Shown here piece by piece: positions 1 to 7,150 of a stretch of 64,000 nt of DNA. Below the pieces are notes generated by a model that saw only the letters and a program-made list of their open reading frames with translations, made no database searches and had not been told where the DNA came from. The translations under genes were made by a program, and so were the position numbers. Location of the stretch: positions 9,034-73,033 of the IMG/VR virus record IMGVR_UViG_3300032132_000004. One strand, given 5' to 3'. Positions within the stretch are counted from its first letter, which is position 1. Each line of letters opens with the position of its first letter. This DNA is from a virus.

Positions 1-1278
1 TCCTCCTGATAAGGACACGAAGGGAATAACATTCTTACGGTGAGTGACCGTCTCCTTAAGTTGTTCGTCAAACTCAATGATGAACTTGCCTTGAGAGAGG
101 TGGGCTAGGTAGAAGTTCACCTTGGAGTTGAAATATGAGAGCACGTTCTTGATAATATACTTGACGATACCCTGCTCAGAGAATGCCTTCTCCCAGAACC
201 TCATGATCTCGTACTTACTGTTGAACTCTTGCTTGATGTCATGAGCTTCTTGGATCCTAACAAGAGTCTCCTCTTTAAGCTCAAGAAAGGTTGCCTCTTG
301 GGACTTGAGAGTTTTGTACTCCTGTAGTTTAGAGAACTCAAGGGAGGATATAGGAACCTCAGGAGTATAGGCCTCTAGTAACCTATGCTGTTCTCCTAGT
401 TCTTGAAGCGTAGCTTCGCTTTCCTGCTTCTTACGAGCGTAGTCTTCCTTAGATAATCCCTTTACCTTTGAACCGCATTTACTACACTTGTGAGAATTCA
501 TAGTTAGCTCTCGTAGTATAGAATCCTCCTGCCTAATAAGAGTATTAGACATTGCGATTCGGGAAATATGTAGCTCTACTTCTTTTTCCTGCACTAGGAT
601 ATCACCCAAGGATAGGTCGAGAGTTCCTTCGAACGATGTATCCTCTGCCTTGTCCATCTTGCTCAGCTTGTTATCAAACTCTTTTATACTCTTCTCATGC
701 TCTGCAATGATAGCATCCTGGCTCCTGATCTTTTGTGAGTACTCAGACTTCAGACGCTTAACGGATTCTCTGAGGGAGAATAACTCCTCCAAGTTCAGGA
801 AATTCTTAATGATGGTGCGTTTATCATCAGGAGTAGCAGTGATGAACTCCATGTTGTTTTGCTGTCCGAACACAGAAGAGGCTAGGAACACCTTATAGTT
901 AGTGTGTAGTGTCTCCTCGATGAATGCTTGGGTGTTCCTTACGGAGTCTCTTGTTATCTCCTTGTCTCCCTTGAAGAACTTAAGGAACCCAGGCTTCTTA
1001 CTCCTATGGATGACATACTCGTCGTTAACCGTGAGCTTTACACTACAGTCCTTTCCTGCAAGGTTGTTGATGATATCATCGTTGGAAGACTTACGAATAG
1101 TACTACCGAATAGGCACCATGTTACTGCTTCAATGAGGGCACTTTTGCCTGACCCATTGGACCCCTTGGTATCTTTATTCTTCCCCTCTAGTAGGACTAA
1201 ACCAGAGTACGAATCAAAGTCTACCTTAACGTCCTTAAGGGAATAGAAGTTAGTTATTTCTGTCTTGTTGATGTTCAT
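1..1278 (-). CDS. gp46: Rad50/SbcC-like recombination ATPase (T4 gp46-like), 3' end runs off the window
   Basis: Not in the ORF track. Manual translation from ATG at 1278 gives MNINKTEITNFYSLKDVKVDF...EGKNKDTKGSNGSGKSALIEAVTWCLFG (Walker A). A CSKC zinc hook occurs near 475-490. Overlaps the end of the Mre11-like gene. Confidence 0.92.
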   Translation of the reverse strand, partial: MNINKTEITNFYSLKDVKVDFDSYSGLVLLEGKNKDTKGSNGSGKSALIEAVTWCLFGSTIRKSSNDDIINNLAGKDCSVKLTVNDEYVIHRSKKPGFLKFFKGDKEITRDSVRNTQAFIEETLHTNYKVFLASSVFGQQNNMEFITATPDDKRTIIKNFLNLEELFSLRESVKRLKSEYSQKIRSQDAIIAEHEKSIKEFDNKLSKMDKAEDTSFEGTLDLSLGDILVQEKEVELHISRIAMSNTLIRQEDSILRELTMNSHKCSKCGSKVKGLSKEDYARKKQESEATLQELGEQHRLLEAYTPEVPISSLEFSKLQEYKTLKSQEATFLELKEETLVRIQEAHDIKQEFNSKYEIMRFWEKAFSEQGIVKYIIKNVLSYFNSKVNFYLAHLSQGKFIIEFDEQLKETVTHRKNVIPFVSLSGG

Positions 1279-2296
1279 GAATTAGTTTCAATCCGCCAAG
1301 AAGTTCGTCCTTATTTATCTTTGCGTTGCTCTGGTTGATGTAGTGATCAAACAACTCGTCGTTAATAGCGGTAGTAAATACCCTATCGTCCGTCTCAAAC
1401 TCATCCCTCTCGTCTAGTAGGGGTTTGTATCTAACCTGTACGAAGGGAGCAGTAATCTTATCACACAAAGCAGCAATGTCCTCTTGGTCCTCACTAACAG
1501 TATTGATATTGATTCTCAGTAGAGTGTAGCCATACTCTCCATCATCATTGATGAAGTCTAGGTTATCCTCTACATCCTCATAATCCATTACGATATGTCT
1601 TGGTCCCCACGTTGACGGGATTTTTTTAAGGTTGAAAGAGCCTGTGCTGCTGCTGGTAGATCTGGGATATTCATCATCAAGGATACCATAGTAGCAGTCT
1701 TTGCTTCGGTCCCCGAAGTTGATAGTGTAGGGCGTTCCGAGGACGGAGACGTTTCCGTTAGTGCCTTCTTTATGAATGTGTCCCAGGATAGTAGGGTTTT
1801 TAAAATCAGATAAGGCAAGACCAAAATCAGCGTCCCCGGCAGAATTAAGAACACCGTGATAACCAAAGTGACCGAAAACAGTATACCCCTCAGGGACATT
1901 AGCAAGAGCTTCTTTAATGATTTGTTCATCTTCATAGTGTGGAATGAATACCATTCTCCTTTTGTGATCTGTGTATGTGTGAGTAATTATGTTTGTACTC
2001 CACCGCTCATTCTCAAACAAACTTAAGGCAGTAACACCATCATCTGCCTTGCTAACGCTATCATGGTTGCCTCTAAGCACAAACACATGCTTGTGTTGTA
2101 TAGTATCAAACACTTCTTTCAAAGCTAAGAGTACTGCTGGGCGAGGATGTCTGTGCATCATTAGGTCGCCAAGGAATACAATAGTATCACAATGATCAGC
2201 TTCTTCGCAAATCTTTAGGACAGCATTCTTCTGAGCTTCTAGAAGACCAGGGGGCTTATCGACAAAATGCAAATCGCCTATTATGAGTGTTGACAT
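1250..2296 (-). CDS. gp47: Mre11/SbcD-like metallophosphoesterase nuclease (T4 gp47-like)
   Basis: Motifs GDLH, FLGD, RGNHD, GHF and GHIH; adjacent to the Rad50-like gene. Confidence 0.92.
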   Translation of the reverse strand: MSTLIIGDLHFVDKPPGLLEAQKNAVLKICEEADHCDTIVFLGDLMMHRHPRPAVLLALKEVFDTIQHKHVFVLRGNHDSVSKADDGVTALSLFENERWSTNIITHTYTDHKRRMVFIPHYEDEQIIKEALANVPEGYTVFGHFGYHGVLNSAGDADFGLALSDFKNPTILGHIHKEGTNGNVSVLGTPYTINFGDRSKDCYYGILDDEYPRSTSSSTGSFNLKKIPSTWGPRHIVMDYEDVEDNLDFINDDGEYGYTLLRININTVSEDQEDIAALCDKITAPFVQVRYKPLLDERDEFETDDRVFTTAINDELFDHYINQSNAKINKDELLGGLKLIHEHQQDRNN

Positions 2297-2952
2297 AAAG
2301 CTTTCCAGCTAACAGGGAATAGTTCTTCCATAATCTTACCTATAGCTTTAGCATACTCCTGGGTTTCAAGCTGAGTGTGAGGGTCTGTTCTTTGTGTGAA
2401 CATATGGTGCCAACCTAGTAGTGTTCCCGTTGTAACTGTTGTGGTGTACATAGATTGGGGCAGGACCATACGAGCTTGCTCTGGGCAAACCCCCATCTCT
2501 AATAAATTTGAATACTCTTGCAAAGCATATTTGTTTGCTATACCAACGCGAACTCTAGCATTGGTATTCCCTCCCTTTGGTTCTTCATTAATAGATCCCT
2601 GTTTCACATTATTTGGTCTAGCTCTAAACTTCCAAGGAATATAAAACTCAGGCTCTGATTTAATGTACCTACGAGATACCTCACTCCAACTGAACCCCAC
2701 TTGATGCTTGCCTATCTGTCTTAGTACGAACAGAGGAGCGACGATTCTAATAGTAGCACTAGGATGACGGAAGGGAAGTAAATGCTTATGCTTTGCCAAG
2801 TAATTAATAAGCTTTGCATCTTTGTCATTCTCAAATATCTCATGTGCTTTATCAAAGGAACACCTAGCAGCATTTACTACAAGTAGATCACCTTTACAGG
2901 TGCTACTTATTAACTCCACTGATCCCCTGTCTAGTACTTTAATATTTACCAA
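2281..2952 (-). CDS. thyX: Flavin-dependent thymidylate synthase ThyX
   Basis: VVNAARCS, H..PF.H, KHQVGFSWSEVSRRY (ThyX RH-x7-S-like motif), EQARMVLP and R...HTQLE. Confidence 0.95.
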   Translation of the reverse strand: MVNIKVLDRGSVELISSTCKGDLLVVNAARCSFDKAHEIFENDKDAKLINYLAKHKHLLPFRHPSATIRIVAPLFVLRQIGKHQVGFSWSEVSRRYIKSEPEFYIPWKFRARPNNVKQGSINEEPKGGNTNARVRVGIANKYALQEYSNLLEMGVCPEQARMVLPQSMYTTTVTTGTLLGWHHMFTQRTDPHTQLETQEYAKAIGKIMEELFPVSWKALCQHS

Positions 2953-4013
2953 GCTGTCACTTCCTTACAGTTACCAAAATTGGTACCTACTTCGATGTCG
3001 ATGTCCAAGGGAATGTCGAAGTGGATGTTGAAGATCTCTTTCACAAGAGGGTAGTGTACCATTTCATGATAGATGATGTCGAGCATTTGTTTCTCCTCTT
3101 CTTTGGGACAAACTGCTTCGATGCTGTCATGCACCGTAGCGACTGCGTATCCTTGCAGCCCTTCCTCCTCGATTCGTCTATCAATACCAAGTAGAACGGT
3201 CATTAGGATATCAGACGCAGGACTTTGGATGGTGAAGTTCAACCCTTGTCTCAGGGATCTGTTAACTACCTTGAAGTCTCTACTGCATACGTTGGGAAGG
3301 TTCCTTGTGCGACCGAAAATAGAGTAGGCGTATCCGTTCTCTTTGATATAATTATTTACGAACTCCATGTAAGAGAAGATGCCTGGGTAGACGTTCTCGT
3401 AATCCGCGATAATCTTTTTAGCTCTGGGTAGAGAGATCCCCATAGTCTCACTAAGGTTGAACGCTCCTCCTCCGTACACGATCAAGAAGGATACTGTCTT
3501 GGCGATCTGTCTCTCTGTCTTTGTGATCTCCTTCTTGTTGAACAGGAGCTTACCAGTATATGTGTGGAGGTCAGCACCTTGGTTGAAGGCAAGCTGCATG
3601 TTACCCTCCTTCGCAATGTGTGCTAGGATTCTAAGCTCCATAGCCTTGTAGTCGGCAGCAATAAAAGACCAATTTCCAGGGGCTTTATACAGGCTACGAA
3701 TGTTATTCTCTTTCTCCCTGGGTAGAGTGTGAAAAGAAACACCCATAGCTTCCTTAGCTTTGTAAGAAGCACAGGACAGTCGCCCAGTAGCAGTACCGTC
3801 GAAGTTATATACCATGTACACCTTATTGTGTCCGTTGTATGCAATAGCCTTCTTTGTACCAGTGATATAAGTTTTGGTTAGCTTCTCAGACTTACGAAGA
3901 TCCAACAAGCCTTGCAGGAACTTCTTTGTGTTGCGTAGATCATCCGTACTCTTACCAGCTAGGACTTCCTTACTGATTCTCTTTCCTTCGTCTCTGTATT
4001 TCCAGTTAACCAC
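2946..4013 (-). CDS. polA: Family A DNA polymerase, C-terminal subunit (thumb end, palm, fingers)
   Basis: TATGRLS, motif A ADYKAMELRILAH, motif B RQIAKTVSFLIVYGG, NFTIQS, motif C TVHDSI. GTG start with GAGGAG 10 nt upstream. Confidence 0.95.
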   Translation of the reverse strand: MVNWKYRDEGKRISKEVLAGKSTDDLRNTKKFLQGLLDLRKSEKLTKTYITGTKKAIAYNGHNKVYMVYNFDGTATGRLSCASYKAKEAMGVSFHTLPREKENNIRSLYKAPGNWSFIAADYKAMELRILAHIAKEGNMQLAFNQGADLHTYTGKLLFNKKEITKTERQIAKTVSFLIVYGGGAFNLSETMGISLPRAKKIIADYENVYPGIFSYMEFVNNYIKENGYAYSIFGRTRNLPNVCSRDFKVVNRSLRQGLNFTIQSPASDILMTVLLGIDRRIEEEGLQGYAVATVHDSIEAVCPKEEEKQMLDIIYHEMVHYPLVKEIFNIHFDIPLDIDIEVGTNFGNCKEVTAW

Positions 4014-4482
4014 GTTTCTCTAGCTCCTCATTAGTTTGTTCCAGAAGGATCTTCAAAGTGGGGGCAGACACTGAGGGCTTTCCTTTAGTTGTCCTGTCGG
4101 GAGGATACAACTCCAAACCTCCTTCTCTGGTGTACAGGATATCCATAAGGTCACCACCTGAAAGGTTATCTGTTTTTAACACACCATCGCACTCATAAAG
4201 AAGGTCTTCATCTTCAATATTCTTAGTCTTCAAATGCCTACCCACAGAGTCTAGGTTCTCCGTAGCAACATCCAAGCCTACGAACTCCTTCTGTGCGAAG
4301 GTATTAAGGGAAGGCATAAGGACATGCTCAATGAGCTTCATAACAGGTTTGCCCTCAAGCTTCTCCATTACCAGATCAAACAGCTTGAGTGTGAAGTATG
4401 TGTCGAAGGCATTTCCTTCTGCACAATCAGACAGGGACATCTCATCCCATTTGAAAGTTTTAGGATTAGAAATCGTAAGCAT
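4006..4482 (-). CDS. Family A DNA polymerase, middle subunit (ExoIII helix plus first half of thumb)
   Basis: AEGNAFDTYFTLKL aligns with the ExoIII YAAED..T..L helix. E..LMP.L.....E..G, NLSG.DL..ILY and TTKGKPSV match the PolA thumb. Confidence 0.85.
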   Translation of the reverse strand: MLTISNPKTFKWDEMSLSDCAEGNAFDTYFTLKLFDLVMEKLEGKPVMKLIEHVLMPSLNTFAQKEFVGLDVATENLDSVGRHLKTKNIEDEDLLYECDGVLKTDNLSGGDLMDILYTREGGLELYPPDRTTKGKPSVSAPTLKILLEQTNEELEKRG

Positions 4483-5510
4483 TAAAGACTCTCCAACTCT
4501 CCAGCAAAGTATAGTTTAACAAGATCCATCAGGCTTCCAGGCATGTTCTCATCTAATTGATGGTGCATAACCTTAGTGTCCCAAGGGTTGGTTACTTTGA
4601 TTCCGTAGTTCAGAAGGAACTTCAGGTCAAACTTAGCGTTGTGAAATACTTTCCTTGCAGGACTCCTCATAATAATCCTAAGGAAATCTCTTAGACTAAG
4701 CCACTTAGAATTTAATACCTCCCCCTTTTTAAAAGGACTATCTTTGTGGTCAACAGGAATAACCCATGTCTCTTCTCTGCATGAGATAGAGATGGTCATG
4801 ATCTTATCCGTAAGGAAGTTCAGTCCTGTAGTCTCAAGGTCTACAGCGAGGTCATCAGTGTAGTTTTGAAGCTTCTCAGCAAGAGCAGAAACCTCCTCCA
4901 AATTCATCAACACAGAGTAGTTAAAGTTACCCTCGGTCTTCTTGCCTAGGATATACTTCTCGTAGGCATTCTGAATGTCTCTCTGGAAGAGAGGAAGGTG
5001 AGCAGGCTCTTTGATACAAGCATAAGGATGGAAGAGCGGAACTACAGTGCAGGTATTCCCATTTTCAGTTGTGTATTGGTAGGCCTTACCTCGCTTACTT
5101 GTAATTCCACTCTTTTTGATCAACATTTTCATAGCCATGTTACCACAGGGGAACACTAGCTTAGGCTTCACCTTATCTATAGTAGCCTCTAGGTGTACCC
5201 GACAGATCTTCATATCGTTAGAGGTCATGTCTGCCTCTCTAACGTCAGGGCACTTGACAGAGGCTGCTGTTACGAAGTCCTCTGAATAACTCTCCTTGAT
5301 GAGCTTGAGGGACTGGGGCATAAAAGCTACGGTCGAACCATGCTTGTAACTTAGAGAATCAGATAGGAATAGGACAGGAGACTCCCTAAGTTCTTCGTAA
5401 TCCATGTGAGAATGGCACGGTTTGTTTTTACTTAGGATGGTACAGCCTTCGCAGAGAGGGTTATCCCCCTGCATCTTACTGTCACTATATAAATTGTTAA
5501 GATCAAACAT
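4482..5510 (-). CDS. Family A DNA polymerase, N-terminal subunit: UDG family-4-like Fe-S domain plus 3'-5' exonuclease ExoI/ExoII
   Basis: CEGC...VKCP...IC...KPKLV...G..A...PLFHP (UDG-4 fold), then AVDLETTGL (ExoI), FHNAKFD (ExoII) and WDT. Confidence 0.88.
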   Translation of the reverse strand: MFDLNNLYSDSKMQGDNPLCEGCTILSKNKPCHSHMDYEELRESPVLFLSDSLSYKHGSTVAFMPQSLKLIKESYSEDFVTAASVKCPDVREADMTSNDMKICRVHLEATIDKVKPKLVFPCGNMAMKMLIKKSGITSKRGKAYQYTTENGNTCTVVPLFHPYACIKEPAHLPLFQRDIQNAYEKYILGKKTEGNFNYSVLMNLEEVSALAEKLQNYTDDLAVDLETTGLNFLTDKIMTISISCREETWVIPVDHKDSPFKKGEVLNSKWLSLRDFLRIIMRSPARKVFHNAKFDLKFLLNYGIKVTNPWDTKVMHHQLDENMPGSLMDLVKLYFAGELESL

Positions 5511-5524
5511 GGCTATAATATGGT
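5511..5524. promoter_or_regulatory. 14-bp divergent spacer with overlapping -10-like boxes
   Basis: TATAAT at 5514-5519, 5 nt before ATG 5525; TATTAT on the minus strand, 4 nt before ATG 5510. No room for a Shine-Dalgarno site in the spacer. Confidence 0.6.
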
Positions 5525-5866
5525 ATGAAGAACCACTACATCGACAACGATAGGTTTGAGGAGATCATCCTATCATACCAACGGGACCCAGAAACTTACG
5601 AGGAAGATCTAGTATCTTTATTCGATGTGCTTATTACCAACATCATAGAATCTTTTAAGTTCAAGGTAGACTCGGGAGACGCCAAGCAGGAATGCTTCAT
5701 TCTGGTTCTTAAGACAGTTAAGAATTTCAAACCTAGAAAGGGCACAGCCTTCAACTACTTCACCACTATCATTATTAATAACTTGAAGCTTCTCTACACT
5801 AGAGAGAAGAAGTACAACAAGAAGATAGAGAACTACATTGAAAGAAAGAAGGATGATTTTATTTAA
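5525..5866 (+). CDS. gp55: Minimal T4 gp55-like late-transcription sigma factor
   Basis: N-terminal NHYIDN (compare gp55 NYVNN), DAKQEC, and NFKP...AFNYFTTII (compare NPFAYFT); sigma region 2 only. Confidence 0.75.
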   Translation: MKNHYIDNDRFEEIILSYQRDPETYEEDLVSLFDVLITNIIESFKFKVDSGDAKQECFILVLKTVKNFKPRKGTAFNYFTTIIINNLKLLYTREKKYNKKIENYIERKKDDFI

Positions 5867-6194
5867 GGCCCAGCTTATCTATCACTAAGGATAGGTAATC
5901 AAGAGACTGTACTTTATTGTTGGTTACTCGTACCAAGTGGGGAAGCTTTGTGGTATTGTAAATAACAAAGCTGTGAGGCATGTGGTAACTATCCACAATG
6001 TAAAGAGGTTGCAGCATATCAGACTCAGAACAAAGCGCACCCTCGTACTGCTCCTTAAGCTGGTCGATCAGCTTATTACAGTACTCATCCCACAAGGATA
6101 CAAAGAGTACTGTAAAAGGCTTCCTATTAGCCTTGTTAGATTTTATGATCTTGTTCAGATCATTTTCCTTCTTAAGGAAGTGTAATTTGTACAT
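5859..6194 (-). CDS. Thioredoxin-fold protein lacking CxxC (WDEYC)
   Basis: FTVLFVSLWDEYCNKL resembles F.A.WCxxC; LYIVD and YNTTKLPHLV resemble the cis-Pro segment. Confidence 0.6.
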   Translation of the reverse strand: MYKLHFLKKENDLNKIIKSNKANRKPFTVLFVSLWDEYCNKLIDQLKEQYEGALCSESDMLQPLYIVDSYHMPHSFVIYNTTKLPHLVRVTNNKVQSLDYLSLVIDKLGLK

Positions 6195-6195
6195 T

Positions 6196-6606
6196 CTAAG
6201 CTTCGTGTTTAGAGATGTCTTCGGATGTAATAACGCTTTCTTCTATAATAGGAGCACCAGACAGTTCTGATTCAATCAGATTTGTGTCTGCGAGTTTAAC
6301 GTTTCCGTCCTCGTCCTCAATAACAGTGATACCTGAGGCAGCAAGCTCTTCCTTGTTTTCAGAAGCGTACTTCTGCATCAAGCCTGCAAGCTGCTGGTTC
6401 ATGGCTTCAATGCCAGTAACAAAAACAACTCTAATGAACTCTTCTGAGGAAGTTCCCTCGGGCTTTACTACAGCCTCAAAGTTCTTAAAAGAGGTTGCCT
6501 CGTCCTTCGATAGTTTAATTGATAATTTCATACGTCCCTTACTCCGTTCATCTGATCTAATTTTCCAAGTACTTACGTCTAGTTTAATTGAGTTCTCGGG
6601 TTCCAT
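6196..6606 (-). CDS. Hypothetical protein, possible ribbon-helix-helix DNA-binding domain with acidic tail
   Basis: MKLSIKLSKDEA..F........TSSEEFIRVV fits the RHH alternating-strand, helix, S-x-x-E-F-I-R pattern. Confidence 0.5.
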   Translation of the reverse strand: MEPENSIKLDVSTWKIRSDERSKGRMKLSIKLSKDEATSFKNFEAVVKPEGTSSEEFIRVVFVTGIEAMNQQLAGLMQKYASENKEELAASGITVIEDEDGNVKLADTNLIESELSGAPIIEESVITSEDISKHEA

Positions 6607-6622
6607 CTTGCTATTATAGTAT
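6607..6622. promoter_or_regulatory. 16-bp divergent spacer with quasi-palindromic CTATTATAG carrying two -10-like boxes
   Basis: TATTAT at 6612-6617, 5 nt before ATG 6623; TATAAT on the minus strand at 6618-6613, 6 nt before ATG 6606. Confidence 0.65.
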
Positions 6623-7150
6623 ATGTCTACAGAAATTAATGATGATTATGATATTTCTTCACTAAAGAAGAAAAAGAAAAAGAATAGTAGAGCCAAGGGC
6701 AGCACCTTTGAAAGGGATATTGCTAAGCTACTTAATAAAAGATTCAATACATCCACCTTTGCAAGAACACCTGGGTCAGGAGCCTTTGCTTCTACCCATA
6801 CCTTACCAGAGCACCTACAAATCCATGGAGATCTAATCACTCCTGCTAACTTCAAGTATTGTCTAGAGTGTAAGAAGGGGTACAACAAAGAGAGCCTATA
6901 CAGTCTATTCAATTATAGCTCAGACACATGGAAGTTCATTGAGCAAGCTGGGAAAGATGCGAAGAGAGCAGGAAAAGTACCCATGGTAATATTTAAACAA
7001 GATAGACGAGAAATATTAGCAATCGTGCCCTCTTATATTATATACTTAAATAACTTAAAGAGTATAGAGATACAAAAAGAAGACAGTAAGTATAGAATAT
7101 ACCTTCTAAAGGATCTACTTAAAGAGGAAGACTATGCTTGGATTGATTGA
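6623..7150 (+). CDS. Holliday junction resolvase (Hjc/T5 D14-like PD-(D/E)xK nuclease)
   Basis: NSRAKGSTFERDIA...RTPGSGA...GDL...LECKK...W..QA..DA...PMVIFKQDR. Confidence 0.85.
   Translation: MSTEINDDYDISSLKKKKKKNSRAKGSTFERDIAKLLNKRFNTSTFARTPGSGAFASTHTLPEHLQIHGDLITPANFKYCLECKKGYNKESLYSLFNYSSDTWKFIEQAGKDAKRAGKVPMVIFKQDRREILAIVPSYIIYLNNLKSIEIQKEDSKYRIYLLKDLLKEEDYAWID

What the first reader, a model, noticed from the sequence alone, without database searches (positions are those of the whole stretch)
2946..5510. Family A DNA polymerase split into three genes, with the proofreading site divided between two chains
Seen: three abutting ORFs are colinear with one PolA. ORF1 carries a UDG-like domain plus ExoI (DLE) and ExoII (HNAKFD). 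ORF2 carries the ExoIII helix (GNAFD, Tyr apparently replaced by Gly) plus half the thumb. ORF3 carries the rest of the thumb plus motifs A, B and C. The junctions look evolved, not broken: a TAATG stop/start overlap at 4480-4484, and an 8-nt overlap at 4006-4013 with GAGGAG before a GTG. Extra helical residues flank the thumb break (EQTNEELEKRG / MVNWKY...KSTDDLRN). There is no intervening intron DNA and no intein end. Established: PolA enzymes are normally single chains and T4-like phages normally use PolB. Inference: a heterotrimeric PolA replicase whose exonuclease active site assembles in trans.
Basis: partly seen in the sequence, partly recalled or inferred. Interest (0 to 1): 0.9.

Follow-up and report, generated by a model that had tools for sequence, protein, structure and literature searches.

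The report
Three-gene split phage DNA polymerase
This uncultured marine phage, like many related phage contigs, encodes its Pol I-type DNA polymerase as three separate genes, cut once inside the proofreading domain and once at the tip of the thumb, so the enzyme most likely works as a three-protein complex and the cuts are not sequencing errors.

Summary
Three abutting minus-strand genes (4482-5510, 4006-4482, 2946-4013) are colinear with one UDG-PolA. Gene 1 carries a UDG-like domain plus ExoI and ExoII. Gene 2 carries ExoIII, with Gly where Pol I has Tyr, plus the first half of the thumb. Gene 3 carries the rest of the thumb and motifs A, B and C.

The cuts are real and old. No IMG/VR relative has a fused junction (0 of 44 at junction 1, 0 of 47 at junction 2). 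Contigs from three other studies bridge both junctions without indels. All three genes are under strong purifying selection.

Half of the relatives carry unrelated genes, often on the opposite strand, between genes 1 and 2. Gene 3 always has its own GTG or ATG start behind a GAGGAG. This argues against read-through, frameshifting, introns and inteins.

Distant relatives have a two-gene form, cut only in the exonuclease domain. Three unsplit PolAs that I read keep the Tyr.

That the three chains assemble, and that the exonuclease is active, are inferences.

The closest published case is the two-gene exo|pol split of T7-like cyanophages, so this is a new variant of a known kind. This scan found the same three-gene layout before on other DNA (e1-6083086, e1-5965831, e1-6017021).

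The parts
4482..5510 (-). Gene 1 (342 aa): UDG-like N-terminal domain plus the first two thirds of the 3'-5' exonuclease domain (ExoI, ExoII)
   Evidence: An alignment of 29 relatives (A1) aligns to Klenow chain 6-128 and to family 4 UDG 4zbx.
4941..5510 (-). UDG-like domain (about residues 1-190 of gene 1); the catalytic loop is not conserved and four Cys are nearly invariant
   Evidence: PF03167, 31.3 bits. The profile matches UDG 4zbx at E 4.3e-15, with L-S-D-S-L opposite the glycosylase's G-E-A-P-G loop. C20, C23, C87 and C103 are conserved at 90% or more.
4833..4841 (-). ExoI motif D-L-E (D224, E226)
   Evidence: Read. D224 and E226 are invariant in 29 of 29 sequences.
4626..4640 (-). ExoII motif N-A-K-F-D (N291, D295)
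   Evidence: Read. D295 is invariant and N291 is conserved at 90% or more.
4480..4484 (-). Junction 1: TAATG, where the stop of gene 1 overlaps the start of gene 2
   Evidence: The same overlap is found in 22 of 44 relatives. The other 22 have 151-1565 nt of other DNA at this point.
4006..4482 (-). Gene 2 (158 aa): last helix of the exonuclease domain (ExoIII), the connecting helices and the first half of the thumb
   Evidence: The profile of 101 sequences aligns to Klenow chain 158-294 at E 3.5e-20. The AF2 model has pLDDT 91.5, five helices and pTM 0.52.
4402..4416 (-). ExoIII motif G-N-A-F-D (Gly23 in place of the canonical Tyr; Asp27)
   Evidence: Read. G23 and D27 are invariant in 101 of 101 sequences and N24 is conserved at 90% or more.
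4024..4029 (-). GAGGAG ribosome-binding site for gene 3, inside the end of gene 2
   Evidence: A GAGGAG-like purine run stands at this spacing in most of the 47 junction sequences printed; I judged this by eye and did not count it.
4006..4013 (-). Junction 2: GTG start of gene 3 overlapping the TAA stop of gene 2 by 8 nt
   Evidence: A start codon at the same codon is present in 47 of 47 relatives, GTG in 43 and ATG in 4.
2946..4013 (-). Gene 3 (355 aa): second half of the thumb, palm and fingers
   Evidence: PF00476 at E 2.9e-71. Residues 36-346 align to Klenow chain 304-601 and residues 30-318 to Bst chain 272-556.
3630..3665 (-). Polymerase motif A (F-I-A-A-D-Y-K-A-M-E-L-R; D121)
   Evidence: D121 is invariant in 25 of 25 sequences. 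It aligns with the Bst motif.
3471..3512 (-). Polymerase motif B (R168, K172, F176, Y180)
   Evidence: All four residues are invariant in 25 of 25 sequences. Alignment.
3117..3137 (-). Polymerase motif C (T-V-H-D-S-I-E; H295, D296)
   Evidence: H295, D296, S297 and E299 are invariant in 25 of 25 sequences. Alignment.
5859..6194 (-). Possible accessory protein (not shown to bind): 111-aa thioredoxin-fold protein without a CxxC motif, a syntenic neighbour of the polymerase genes
   Evidence: AF2 model with pLDDT 85.9. Foldseek matches thioredoxins at E 1e-6, TM about 0.67-0.70. tblastn found it upstream of gene 1 in 47 of the 52 loci searched, the three two-gene relatives included.

Best explanation
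The phage makes its family A (Pol I-type, UDG-PolA class) DNA polymerase from three separately translated proteins that reassemble into one enzyme.

- Gene 1 gives a UDG-like domain and the exonuclease core with three of the four metal-binding carboxylates (ExoI D and E, ExoII D).
- Gene 2 gives the last exonuclease helix with the fourth carboxylate (ExoIII D), the connector and the first half of the thumb.
- Gene 3 gives the second half of the thumb, the palm and the fingers, with motifs A, B and C.

The genes are read from one transcript by translational coupling: TAATG at the first junction, and a GAGGAG plus GTG that overlaps the stop at the second.

Shown here: the gene structure, its conservation, the selection on it, and the mapping of the cuts onto Pol I. 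Inferred: that the chains bind each other, that the composite exonuclease site is active, and that this enzyme replicates the genome.
For: Structure and colinearity. Gene 1 aligns to Klenow chain 6-128, gene 2 to 158-294 and gene 3 to 304-601. The pieces are also colinear with natural fused or unsplit proteins.

Not an error. Of 49 IMG/VR loci at 65-78% identity in gene 3, 0 of 44 with junction 1 and 0 of 47 with junction 2 are fused. Logan contigs of runs from three other studies (X2, X3, X4) bridge both junctions, and X7 bridges junction 2. No indel is listed at either junction.

Separate translation.
- 22 of 44 relatives hold 151-1565 nt of other DNA between genes 1 and 2, with ORFs mostly on the opposite strand.
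- No Rfam intron was found in 11 such loci.
- Gene 3 starts with GTG (43) or ATG (4) at the same codon, behind a GAGGAG-like run in most (judged by eye). The frame offset between genes 2 and 3 is +1 in 42 loci, +2 in 4, and 0 in L026, whose gene 2 is frameshifted.

Selection. Median dN/dS is 0.061, 0.064 and 0.051 for genes 1, 2 and 3 in the pairs with usable dS. Median pN is 0.19-0.23 against pS of about 0.8.

Catalytic residues. D224, E226 and D295 are invariant in 29 of 29 sequences. D27 is invariant in 101 of 101. D121, R168, K172, F176, Y180, H295 and D296 are invariant in 25 of 25.

Breadth. Of 117 clusters related to gene 2 in 1.84 billion representatives, 111 are proteins of 181 aa or less. 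The best 120 of 971 gene 3 relatives in the 195-622 aa class are all 322-373 aa.
Against: - No experiment or interface model shows that the three chains bind.
- The ExoIII Tyr, which in Klenow helps to position the attacking water (recalled), is Gly in all 101 relatives. Proofreading may therefore be weak or may work differently.
- Motif C reads H-D-S, not H-D-E.
- No run on record as RNA holds the stretch, so expression is not documented.
- The record is about 64% complete, so another polymerase elsewhere in the genome cannot be excluded.
- One relative (L026) has a frameshifted gene 2.
- Low-level ribosomal frameshifting at junction 2 of this particular window cannot be excluded from sequence alone.
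Confidence: 0.85

Rival explanations
1. The three chains assemble, but the exonuclease site is dead or much weakened. It would serve only as a structural scaffold for the polymerase, as the inactive exonuclease-like domains of Taq and Bst Pol I do.
For: The canonical ExoIII Tyr is replaced by Gly in 101 of 101 gene 2 relatives. Three unsplit relatives that I read keep the Tyr: P0116, P0255 and P0288. The site is also cut in two, which could lower its stability.
Against: All four carboxylates are invariant across deep divergence, and the Asn of G-N-x-x-D is conserved at 90% or more. Inactive Pol I exonuclease-like domains lose these residues (recalled for Taq and Bst). In Klenow, changing Tyr497 lowers but does not abolish activity (recalled from Derbyshire et al. 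1991; not read here).
Confidence: 0.2
2. The pieces do not form one enzyme. Gene 1 would act on its own as a UDG-like DNA-binding protein or nuclease. Genes 2 and 3, or gene 3 alone, would be the polymerase.
For: Exonuclease-only and polymerase-only phage proteins exist; PHROG 192 is named 'DNA polymerase exonuclease subunit'. In half of the relatives gene 1 is separated from gene 2 by other genes.
Against: Gene 1 lacks the last part of the exonuclease profile (positions 6-129 of 173). The missing ExoIII helix, with its invariant Asp, sits at the start of gene 2. The gene 2 model is five helices with high pLDDT but pTM 0.52; I read this as no compact core, and that reading is my inference. All three genes stay together and in order in every locus that covers them.
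Confidence: 0.07
3. A single chain, or a gene 2-3 fusion, is made by recoding: stop read-through or ribosomal frameshifting at the junctions.
For: Both junctions are overlaps. A purine-rich GAGGAG lies upstream of a stop codon at junction 2, which superficially recalls the +1 frameshift site of prfB (recalled).
Against: At junction 1, 22 of 44 relatives have whole genes, often on the opposite strand, between genes 1 and 2. At junction 2 the bases in the overlap vary (GTGGGTAA, GTGAGTAA, GTGTCTAA, GTGGCTAA, ATGA) and the frame offset differs between clades. A start codon is kept in 47 of 47 loci, and two loci lose the overlapping stop without fusing the frames.
Confidence: 0.04
4. Sequencing or assembly errors, or a decaying pseudogene.
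For: Frameshift errors commonly split long genes in metagenome assemblies. One relative (L026) does carry a frameshifted gene 2.
Against: The same two cuts are present in all 44 and 47 loci that cover them. They are also present in contigs from independent runs. dN/dS is about 0.05-0.06 in each piece and the catalytic residues are invariant.
Confidence: 0.01

Closest known systems
Two-gene exo|pol split PolA of S-SBP1-like T7-like cyanophages (Czernecki et al. 2023, NAR, PMC10201439; I read the abstract passages and section 32. Also clade B cyanophages such as S-TIP37 in PMC12695635, passages only)
   Same: A phage family A polymerase turned into separately translated genes by gene fission. 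The cut is conserved within a clade, and the pieces are thought to re-associate.
   Different: There the enzyme is of the T7-like subfamily, has one cut, and the cut lies between the exonuclease and polymerase domains. Here there are two cuts. One lies inside the exonuclease domain, dividing the active-site carboxylates three to one. The other lies at the thumb tip. The enzyme is of the UDG-PolA type. That paper calls its split the first seen in PolAs.
Single-chain UDG-PolAs: N4-like cluster 17 and the SPO1, SP-10 and SP-15 type (Czernecki et al. 2023, passages)
   Same: The order is the same: family 4 UDG-like domain, 3'-5' exonuclease, polymerase. As in N4-like enzymes, the UDG catalytic loop is not conserved. 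The best hits among cultured phages include SP-10 and SPO1-like Bacillus phages at about 30% identity.
   Different: Those are one chain of about 800-900 aa. Two unsplit UDG-PolAs that I read (P0255, P0288) have the ExoIII Tyr, where this clade has Gly.
Split DNA polymerase of OM43 phages MEP401 and MEP402 (PMC10580990, passages)
   Same: [quoted passage not shown] This is like the inserts at junction 1 in half of the relatives here.
   Different: It has two pieces, in a podovirus lineage (Zobellviridae). Its position relative to the exonuclease motifs was not compared here. The authors leave open whether an intron is involved.
T7 gene 5 polymerase with host thioredoxin bound to a thumb insertion (recalled; the thioredoxin-binding domain is mentioned in the PMC10201439 passages)
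   Same: There is extra sequence at the thumb tip, about 35-45 residues more than Klenow. A thioredoxin-fold protein is encoded next to the polymerase genes.
   Different: The thioredoxin-fold protein here is phage-encoded and lacks CxxC. The thumb insertion is cut into two chains. No binding was tested.
Split family B polymerases: PhiKZ DNAP-N plus DNAP-C (bioRxiv 10.64898/2026.09.30.755723, abstract only); split gp43 of some T4-related Aeromonas phages (recalled)
   Same: A replicative phage polymerase that works as a stable complex of separately encoded pieces.
   Different: They belong to a different polymerase family and have two pieces.

Membership tests
Family A DNA polymerase (PF00476) | Pfam DNA_pol_A match above the curated cut-off | tested here: met
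   Gene 3 scores 240.9 bits against a cut-off of 34.3, over profile positions 66-380 of 381. It is the only match in the record.
Family A DNA polymerase (PF00476) | Motif A Asp; motif B R, K, F/Y and Y; motif C H-D | tested here: met
   D121, R168, K172, F176, Y180, H295 and D296 are invariant in 25 of 25 sequences and align with the Bst motifs. The residue after H-D is Ser, not Glu.
Family A DNA polymerase (PF00476) | A single polypeptide carrying exonuclease, thumb, palm and fingers | tested here: not met
   There are three genes, with 0 of 44 and 0 of 47 fused junctions in the relatives.
DEDDy 3'-5' exonuclease domain of Pol I (PF01612) | ExoI D-x-E and ExoII N-x3-D | tested here: met
   D224, E226 and D295 are invariant, and N291 is conserved at 90% or more. 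PF01612 scores 64.7 bits.
DEDDy 3'-5' exonuclease domain of Pol I (PF01612) | ExoIII Y-x3-D on the same chain | tested here: not met
   The Asp is present (D27, invariant in 101 of 101), but it lies on gene 2, and the Tyr position is an invariant Gly.
Family 4 uracil-DNA glycosylase (PF03167) | Pfam UDG match above the cut-off | tested here: met
   31.3 bits against a cut-off of 24.3. The profile matches UDG 4zbx at E 4.3e-15.
Family 4 uracil-DNA glycosylase (PF03167) | Catalytic G-E-(A/G)-P-G loop | tested here: not met
   L-S-D-S-L lies opposite G-E-A-P-G in the alignment to 4zbx. The unsplit P0255 has G-E-A-P-G.
Family 4 uracil-DNA glycosylase (PF03167) | Four Cys that hold the 4Fe-4S cluster (that they are the ligands is recalled) | tested here: inconclusive
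   C20, C23, C87 and C103 are conserved at 90% or more. C87 and C103 align with Cys of 4zbx. The N-terminal pair was not aligned, and no metal was tested.
S-SBP1-like split T7-like PolA (Czernecki 2023) | One cut, lying between the exonuclease and polymerase domains | tested here: not met
   There are two cuts. They correspond to roughly Klenow residues 452-480 (between ExoII and ExoIII) and 618-626 (thumb).
S-SBP1-like split T7-like PolA (Czernecki 2023) | Membership of the T7-like PolA cluster | not tested
   No clustering was done. The best PDB and phage hits are Pol I, Bst and SPO1/SP-10-like enzymes, not T7.
Split intein or intron-interrupted gene | Intein halves at the new termini, or a self-splicing intron between the pieces | tested here: not met
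   Pfam found no Hint or intein domain. Only 11 residues of gene 2 lie beyond its Klenow-aligned part. The genes abut. No Rfam family scored in 11 relatives that carry inserts. The window itself was not scanned with Rfam.

The most novel reading that the evidence does not exclude
The replicase is a four-protein machine. The three polymerase chains would be joined by the neighbouring phage-encoded, redox-dead thioredoxin-fold protein, which would dock on the cut, enlarged thumb tip as a built-in processivity factor. This would be a phage-owned version of the T7 gp5-thioredoxin pair. Splitting the proofreading site, together with the invariant Tyr-to-Gly change, would let the phage tune or switch proofreading through subunit assembly.
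Probability: 0.15. Interest if true: 0.8.

Novelty: new variant of a known kind. Interest (0 to 1): 0.62.

Why it matters
Pol I-type polymerases are textbook single-chain enzymes. The one published natural split that I found described separates whole domains. Here a large and widespread group of marine phages has kept, across saturating sequence divergence, a polymerase cut through its proofreading active site and through its thumb.

- It shows where the Pol I fold tolerates breaks.
- It offers a natural model for how active sites can be assembled from separate chains.
- It gives ready-made split points for engineering split polymerases.
- It also matters for annotation. Surveys of viral PolA that expect one long gene will miss or mislabel these enzymes, and the 158-aa middle gene matches no Pfam family above cut-off.

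Tried and rejected
Complex prediction. I sent gene 1 residues 185-342, gene 2 and gene 3, each with its alignment, with gene 2 as the partner. The verdict was 'no answer', because a control in which chain 3 was replaced scored nearly as high. I do not use this result either way.

Searches that found nothing:
- blastn of the region against the phage collection gave no match.
- tblastn of gene 2 against phages gave no match.
- PHROGs gave no family for gene 2.
- Pfam gave no family for 10 ORFs inserted at junction 1 in relatives, so no homing endonuclease was recognised.
- None of these inserts has a homologue in the window's own genome.
- A PDB sequence search with the 111-aa neighbour gave no match.

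Weak or incomplete results:
- Foldseek with the gene 2 model returned only Pol I large fragments, at E 0.15 or worse and TM about 0.4. This is consistent but not significant; the sequence profile result carries the mapping.
- The promoter and terminator scan of 1200-6700 found sites at chance level.
- The tree of the gene 2 region is only the quick tree, because the careful search did not finish, and most forks are weak. It places the fused gene 2+3 forms among the stand-alone ones (at least 2 changes). The order of fission and fusion at the thumb therefore stays open.
- Rows left out of that tree: proteins outside 145-190 aa, apart from the five long forms and P0116.

No RNA holder was listed for the stretch.

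Literature. Five searches found no description of a three-gene PolA. Supplementary files were not opened and may hold relevant gene tables.

A slip of my own: the gene 2 end was overstated for L005, L007 and L020, because tblastn had read through the stop. One search shows the stop at the usual place.

Full report
WHAT IS THERE

The window holds three abutting minus-strand ORFs:
- gene 1: 4482-5510, 342 aa, ATG start
- gene 2: 4006-4482, 158 aa, ATG start
- gene 3: 2946-4013, 355 aa, GTG start

Pfam gives gene 1 a UDG domain (PF03167, 31.3 bits against a cut-off of 24.3) and DNA_pol_A_exo1 (PF01612). The exonuclease match covers only profile positions 6-129 of 173. Gene 2 has no match above cut-off. 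Gene 3 matches DNA_pol_A (PF00476) over positions 66-380 of 381. PHROGs places genes 1 and 3 on successive parts of one long polymerase family, phrog_17: positions 523-785 and 929-1236 of 1445.

- D-L-E at 4833-4841
- N-A-K-F-D at 4626-4640
- G-N-A-F-D at 4402-4416
- TAATG at 4480-4484
- GTG at 4011-4013, overlapping the TAA at 4006-4008
- GAGGAG at 4024-4029, 10 nt upstream of the GTG

MAPPING ONTO POL I

- A profile of 29 gene 1 relatives aligns to Klenow fragment chain positions 6-128.
- A profile of 101 gene 2 relatives aligns to chain positions 158-294 at E 3.5e-20.
- Gene 3 residues 36-346 align to chain positions 304-601.

Adding 323 to the chain index gives Klenow numbering. Gly23 of gene 2 then falls on Tyr497 and Asp27 on Asp501.

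The first cut therefore lies in the stretch between ExoII and ExoIII. The second lies at the thumb tip, just after the S-T-S-E-E-V-L-E-E-L segment of Klenow. At the thumb cut this enzyme has about 35-45 residues more than Klenow. These are the last 11 residues of gene 2 plus the first 35 or so of gene 3, against 9 residues in Klenow.

The AlphaFold2 model of gene 2 alone is five helices, with pLDDT 91.5 but pTM 0.52. Its Foldseek matches are all Pol I large fragments but weak, at E 0.15 or worse.

NOT AN ERROR AND NOT A DECAYING GENE

A scan of IMG/VR gave 49 loci with gene 3 at 65-78% identity. All of them keep the three pieces in order and in separate frames.

Of the 44 loci that cover junction 1:
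- 22 have the TAATG overlap;
- 22 have 151-1565 nt of other DNA there;
- none is fused.

Of the 47 loci that cover junction 2:
- all have a start codon at the same codon, GTG in 43 and ATG in 4;
- the gene 2 stop overlaps the start by 8 nt in 41, by 4 nt (ATGA) in 4 and by 26 nt in 2;
- none is fused.

Many loci are near-copies of one another. The distinct protein sequences number about 30, 26 and 27 for the three genes.

The stretch, or part of it, is held by 20 marine metagenome runs of 12 studies. Contigs of X2, X3 and X4, each from a different study and none the likely source, bridge both junctions. X7 bridges junction 2. No inserted or missing base is listed at either junction.

The only gaps listed are four single-base gaps at 4403-4422 in X3, and they cancel out. 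Worked out by hand from the tables, that variant keeps the reading frame and a G-N-A-x-D motif.

Median dN/dS in the pairs with usable dS is 0.061 for gene 1 (3 pairs), 0.064 for gene 2 (20 pairs) and 0.051 for gene 3 (13 pairs). Over all pairs, pN is 0.19-0.23 against a pS of about 0.8.

NOT RECODING, INTRON OR INTEIN

The DNA inserted at junction 1 in relatives holds ORFs of at least four unrelated kinds:
- a family on the opposite strand that shares a 25-residue N-terminal motif, with up to three copies in L026;
- a 91-aa hydrophobic protein on the same strand;
- a 161-aa protein on the opposite strand;
- a 92-aa protein in L051.

None of these matches a Pfam family, and no Rfam family scored in 11 such loci. 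A ribosome cannot read through genes that lie on the opposite strand.

At junction 2 the overlapping bases vary and the frame offset differs between clades, while the start codon is kept in all 47 loci. A GAGGAG-like run precedes it in most, judged by eye. No intein domain was found, and the termini leave no room for intein halves.

HOW WIDE AND HOW OLD

In 1.84 billion cluster representatives, gene 2 has 117 relatives at E of 0.001 or better. Of these, 111 are 181 aa or shorter, and most begin at residue 1 of the query.

Six are longer. P0098, P0112 and P0114 (515-563 aa) are natural fusions of gene 2 and gene 3 and are colinear with them. Their IMG/VR loci, L051-L053, carry a gene 1 homologue just upstream. 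The first cut is in the same place, and L051 has a 92-aa gene in the gap.

A two-gene form therefore exists, cut only inside the exonuclease domain. Its gene 3 region is about 41% identical to the one here.

The closest proteins of 623 aa or more are only 28-36% identical to gene 3. The best 120 relatives in the 195-622 aa class are all 322-373 aa long.

The unsplit proteins I read have Tyr in ExoIII: P0116, and the UDG-PolAs P0255 and P0288. All 101 members of the split family have Gly.

A quick, weakly supported tree places the fused gene 2+3 forms among the stand-alone ones. The order of events at the thumb is therefore open.

CONTEXT

The record is an IMG/VR virus contig of 73,033 bases, with no end repeats found and an estimated completeness of 64%. 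Related contigs reach 98-118 kb.

The structural genes are distantly T4-like. The major head protein is about 29% identical to those of cyanomyoviruses, and there are a tail sheath and a prohead protease.

Around the polymerase lie:
- ThyX;
- SbcD-like and SbcC-like genes;
- a class I-type ribonucleotide reductase;
- a DnaB-like helicase;
- a DnaG-like primase;
- a UvsW-like helicase;
- a RusA-like resolvase.

No PolB domain is in the record.

Two small neighbours stay with the polymerase genes in 47 and 43 of the 52 loci searched, the three two-gene relatives included:
- a divergently transcribed protein with a weak Sigma70_r2 match, at 5525-5866;
- a 111-aa protein at 5859-6194.

The 111-aa protein is modelled with pLDDT 85.9 as a thioredoxin fold (Foldseek E 1e-6, TM about 0.67-0.70). 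It has W-D-E-Y-C where thioredoxin has its CxxC, and most relatives have no Cys there.

MOST LIKELY MECHANISM

Step 1. One transcript, read by coupled translation, yields three proteins. This is inferred from the overlaps, the ribosome-binding sites and the absence of terminator-like sites on that strand between the genes (at chance level).

Step 2. Gene 2 is the clasp. Its first helix completes the exonuclease fold of gene 1 and brings the fourth carboxylate. Its last helices pair with the first helices of gene 3 to form the thumb. This is inferred from colinearity with Pol I and with the natural fusions.

Step 3. Polymerase chemistry sits wholly in gene 3. Proofreading chemistry is shared between genes 1 and 2.

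Whether the Gly-for-Tyr change weakens proofreading, or is made good by another residue, is unknown.

COMPARISON WITH WHAT IS KNOWN

Czernecki et al. 2023 (PMC10201439; abstract passages and section 32 read) describe a two-gene exo|pol fission in S-SBP1-like T7-like cyanophages and call it the first in PolAs. They also describe single-chain UDG-PolAs. A split polymerase with a small ORF in the gap is reported for OM43 phages (PMC10580990, passages). A split PolA of clade B T7-like cyanophages is reported in PMC12695635 (passages).

Five full-text searches found no three-gene PolA, and no cut inside the exonuclease site.

I therefore rate this a new variant of a known kind.

This scan had already noted the same layout on other genomes. 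My checks were made independently on this window and agree with those notes.

Noticed in passing
window 5859-6194 (-): A 111-aa protein modelled as a thioredoxin fold (pLDDT 85.9; Foldseek E 1e-6), with W-D-E-Y-C in place of CxxC. tblastn found it next to the polymerase genes in 47 of 52 loci searched, the two-gene relatives included. It may be a phage-owned thumb-binding processivity factor like thioredoxin for T7. Binding was not tested.
   Followed up: partly
window 5525-5866 (+): A 113-aa protein with a weak Sigma70_r2 match (23.7 bits, cut-off 24), transcribed divergently from gene 1. It is 54-88% identical in 43 of the 52 loci searched, which in most loci is higher than the identity of polymerase genes 1 and 2.
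   Followed up: partly
relatives L006-L047 and L051, between genes 1 and 2: The gap between genes 1 and 2 is a hot spot for small genes of at least four unrelated kinds. One is an opposite-strand family with a shared 25-residue N-terminal motif, present in up to three tandem copies in L026. None has a Pfam family, an Rfam intron or a homologue in this genome.
   Followed up: partly
L026:5500-6010: One relative has a gene 2 with a deletion and a frame change in its middle. This may be an assembly error, a broken copy or a further split.
   Followed up: no
window 4941-5510 (-): The UDG-like domain keeps four nearly invariant Cys (C20, C23, C87, C103) but has L-S-D-S-L in place of the catalytic G-E-A-P-G loop. 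The two-gene relatives L052 and L053 lack the Cys as well.
   Followed up: partly
window 3117-3137 (-): Polymerase motif C reads H-D-S-I-E, with an invariant Ser where Pol I has Glu and an invariant Glu two residues later. The two-gene relatives and the unsplit P0255 and P0288 also have H-D-S.
   Followed up: no
window 4400-4432, run X3: A variant from another study has a diverged patch over the ExoIII codons, shown as four single-base gaps that cancel out. By hand it keeps the frame and a G-N-A-x-D motif, which suggests a recombined patch.
   Followed up: partly
L050:4837-6900 (own genome, upstream of the window): A 687-aa HEAT-repeat protein (HEAT_2 at E 3.9e-30) sits in the replication module between the ribonucleotide reductase and the helicase region. 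This is unusual for a phage.
   Followed up: no
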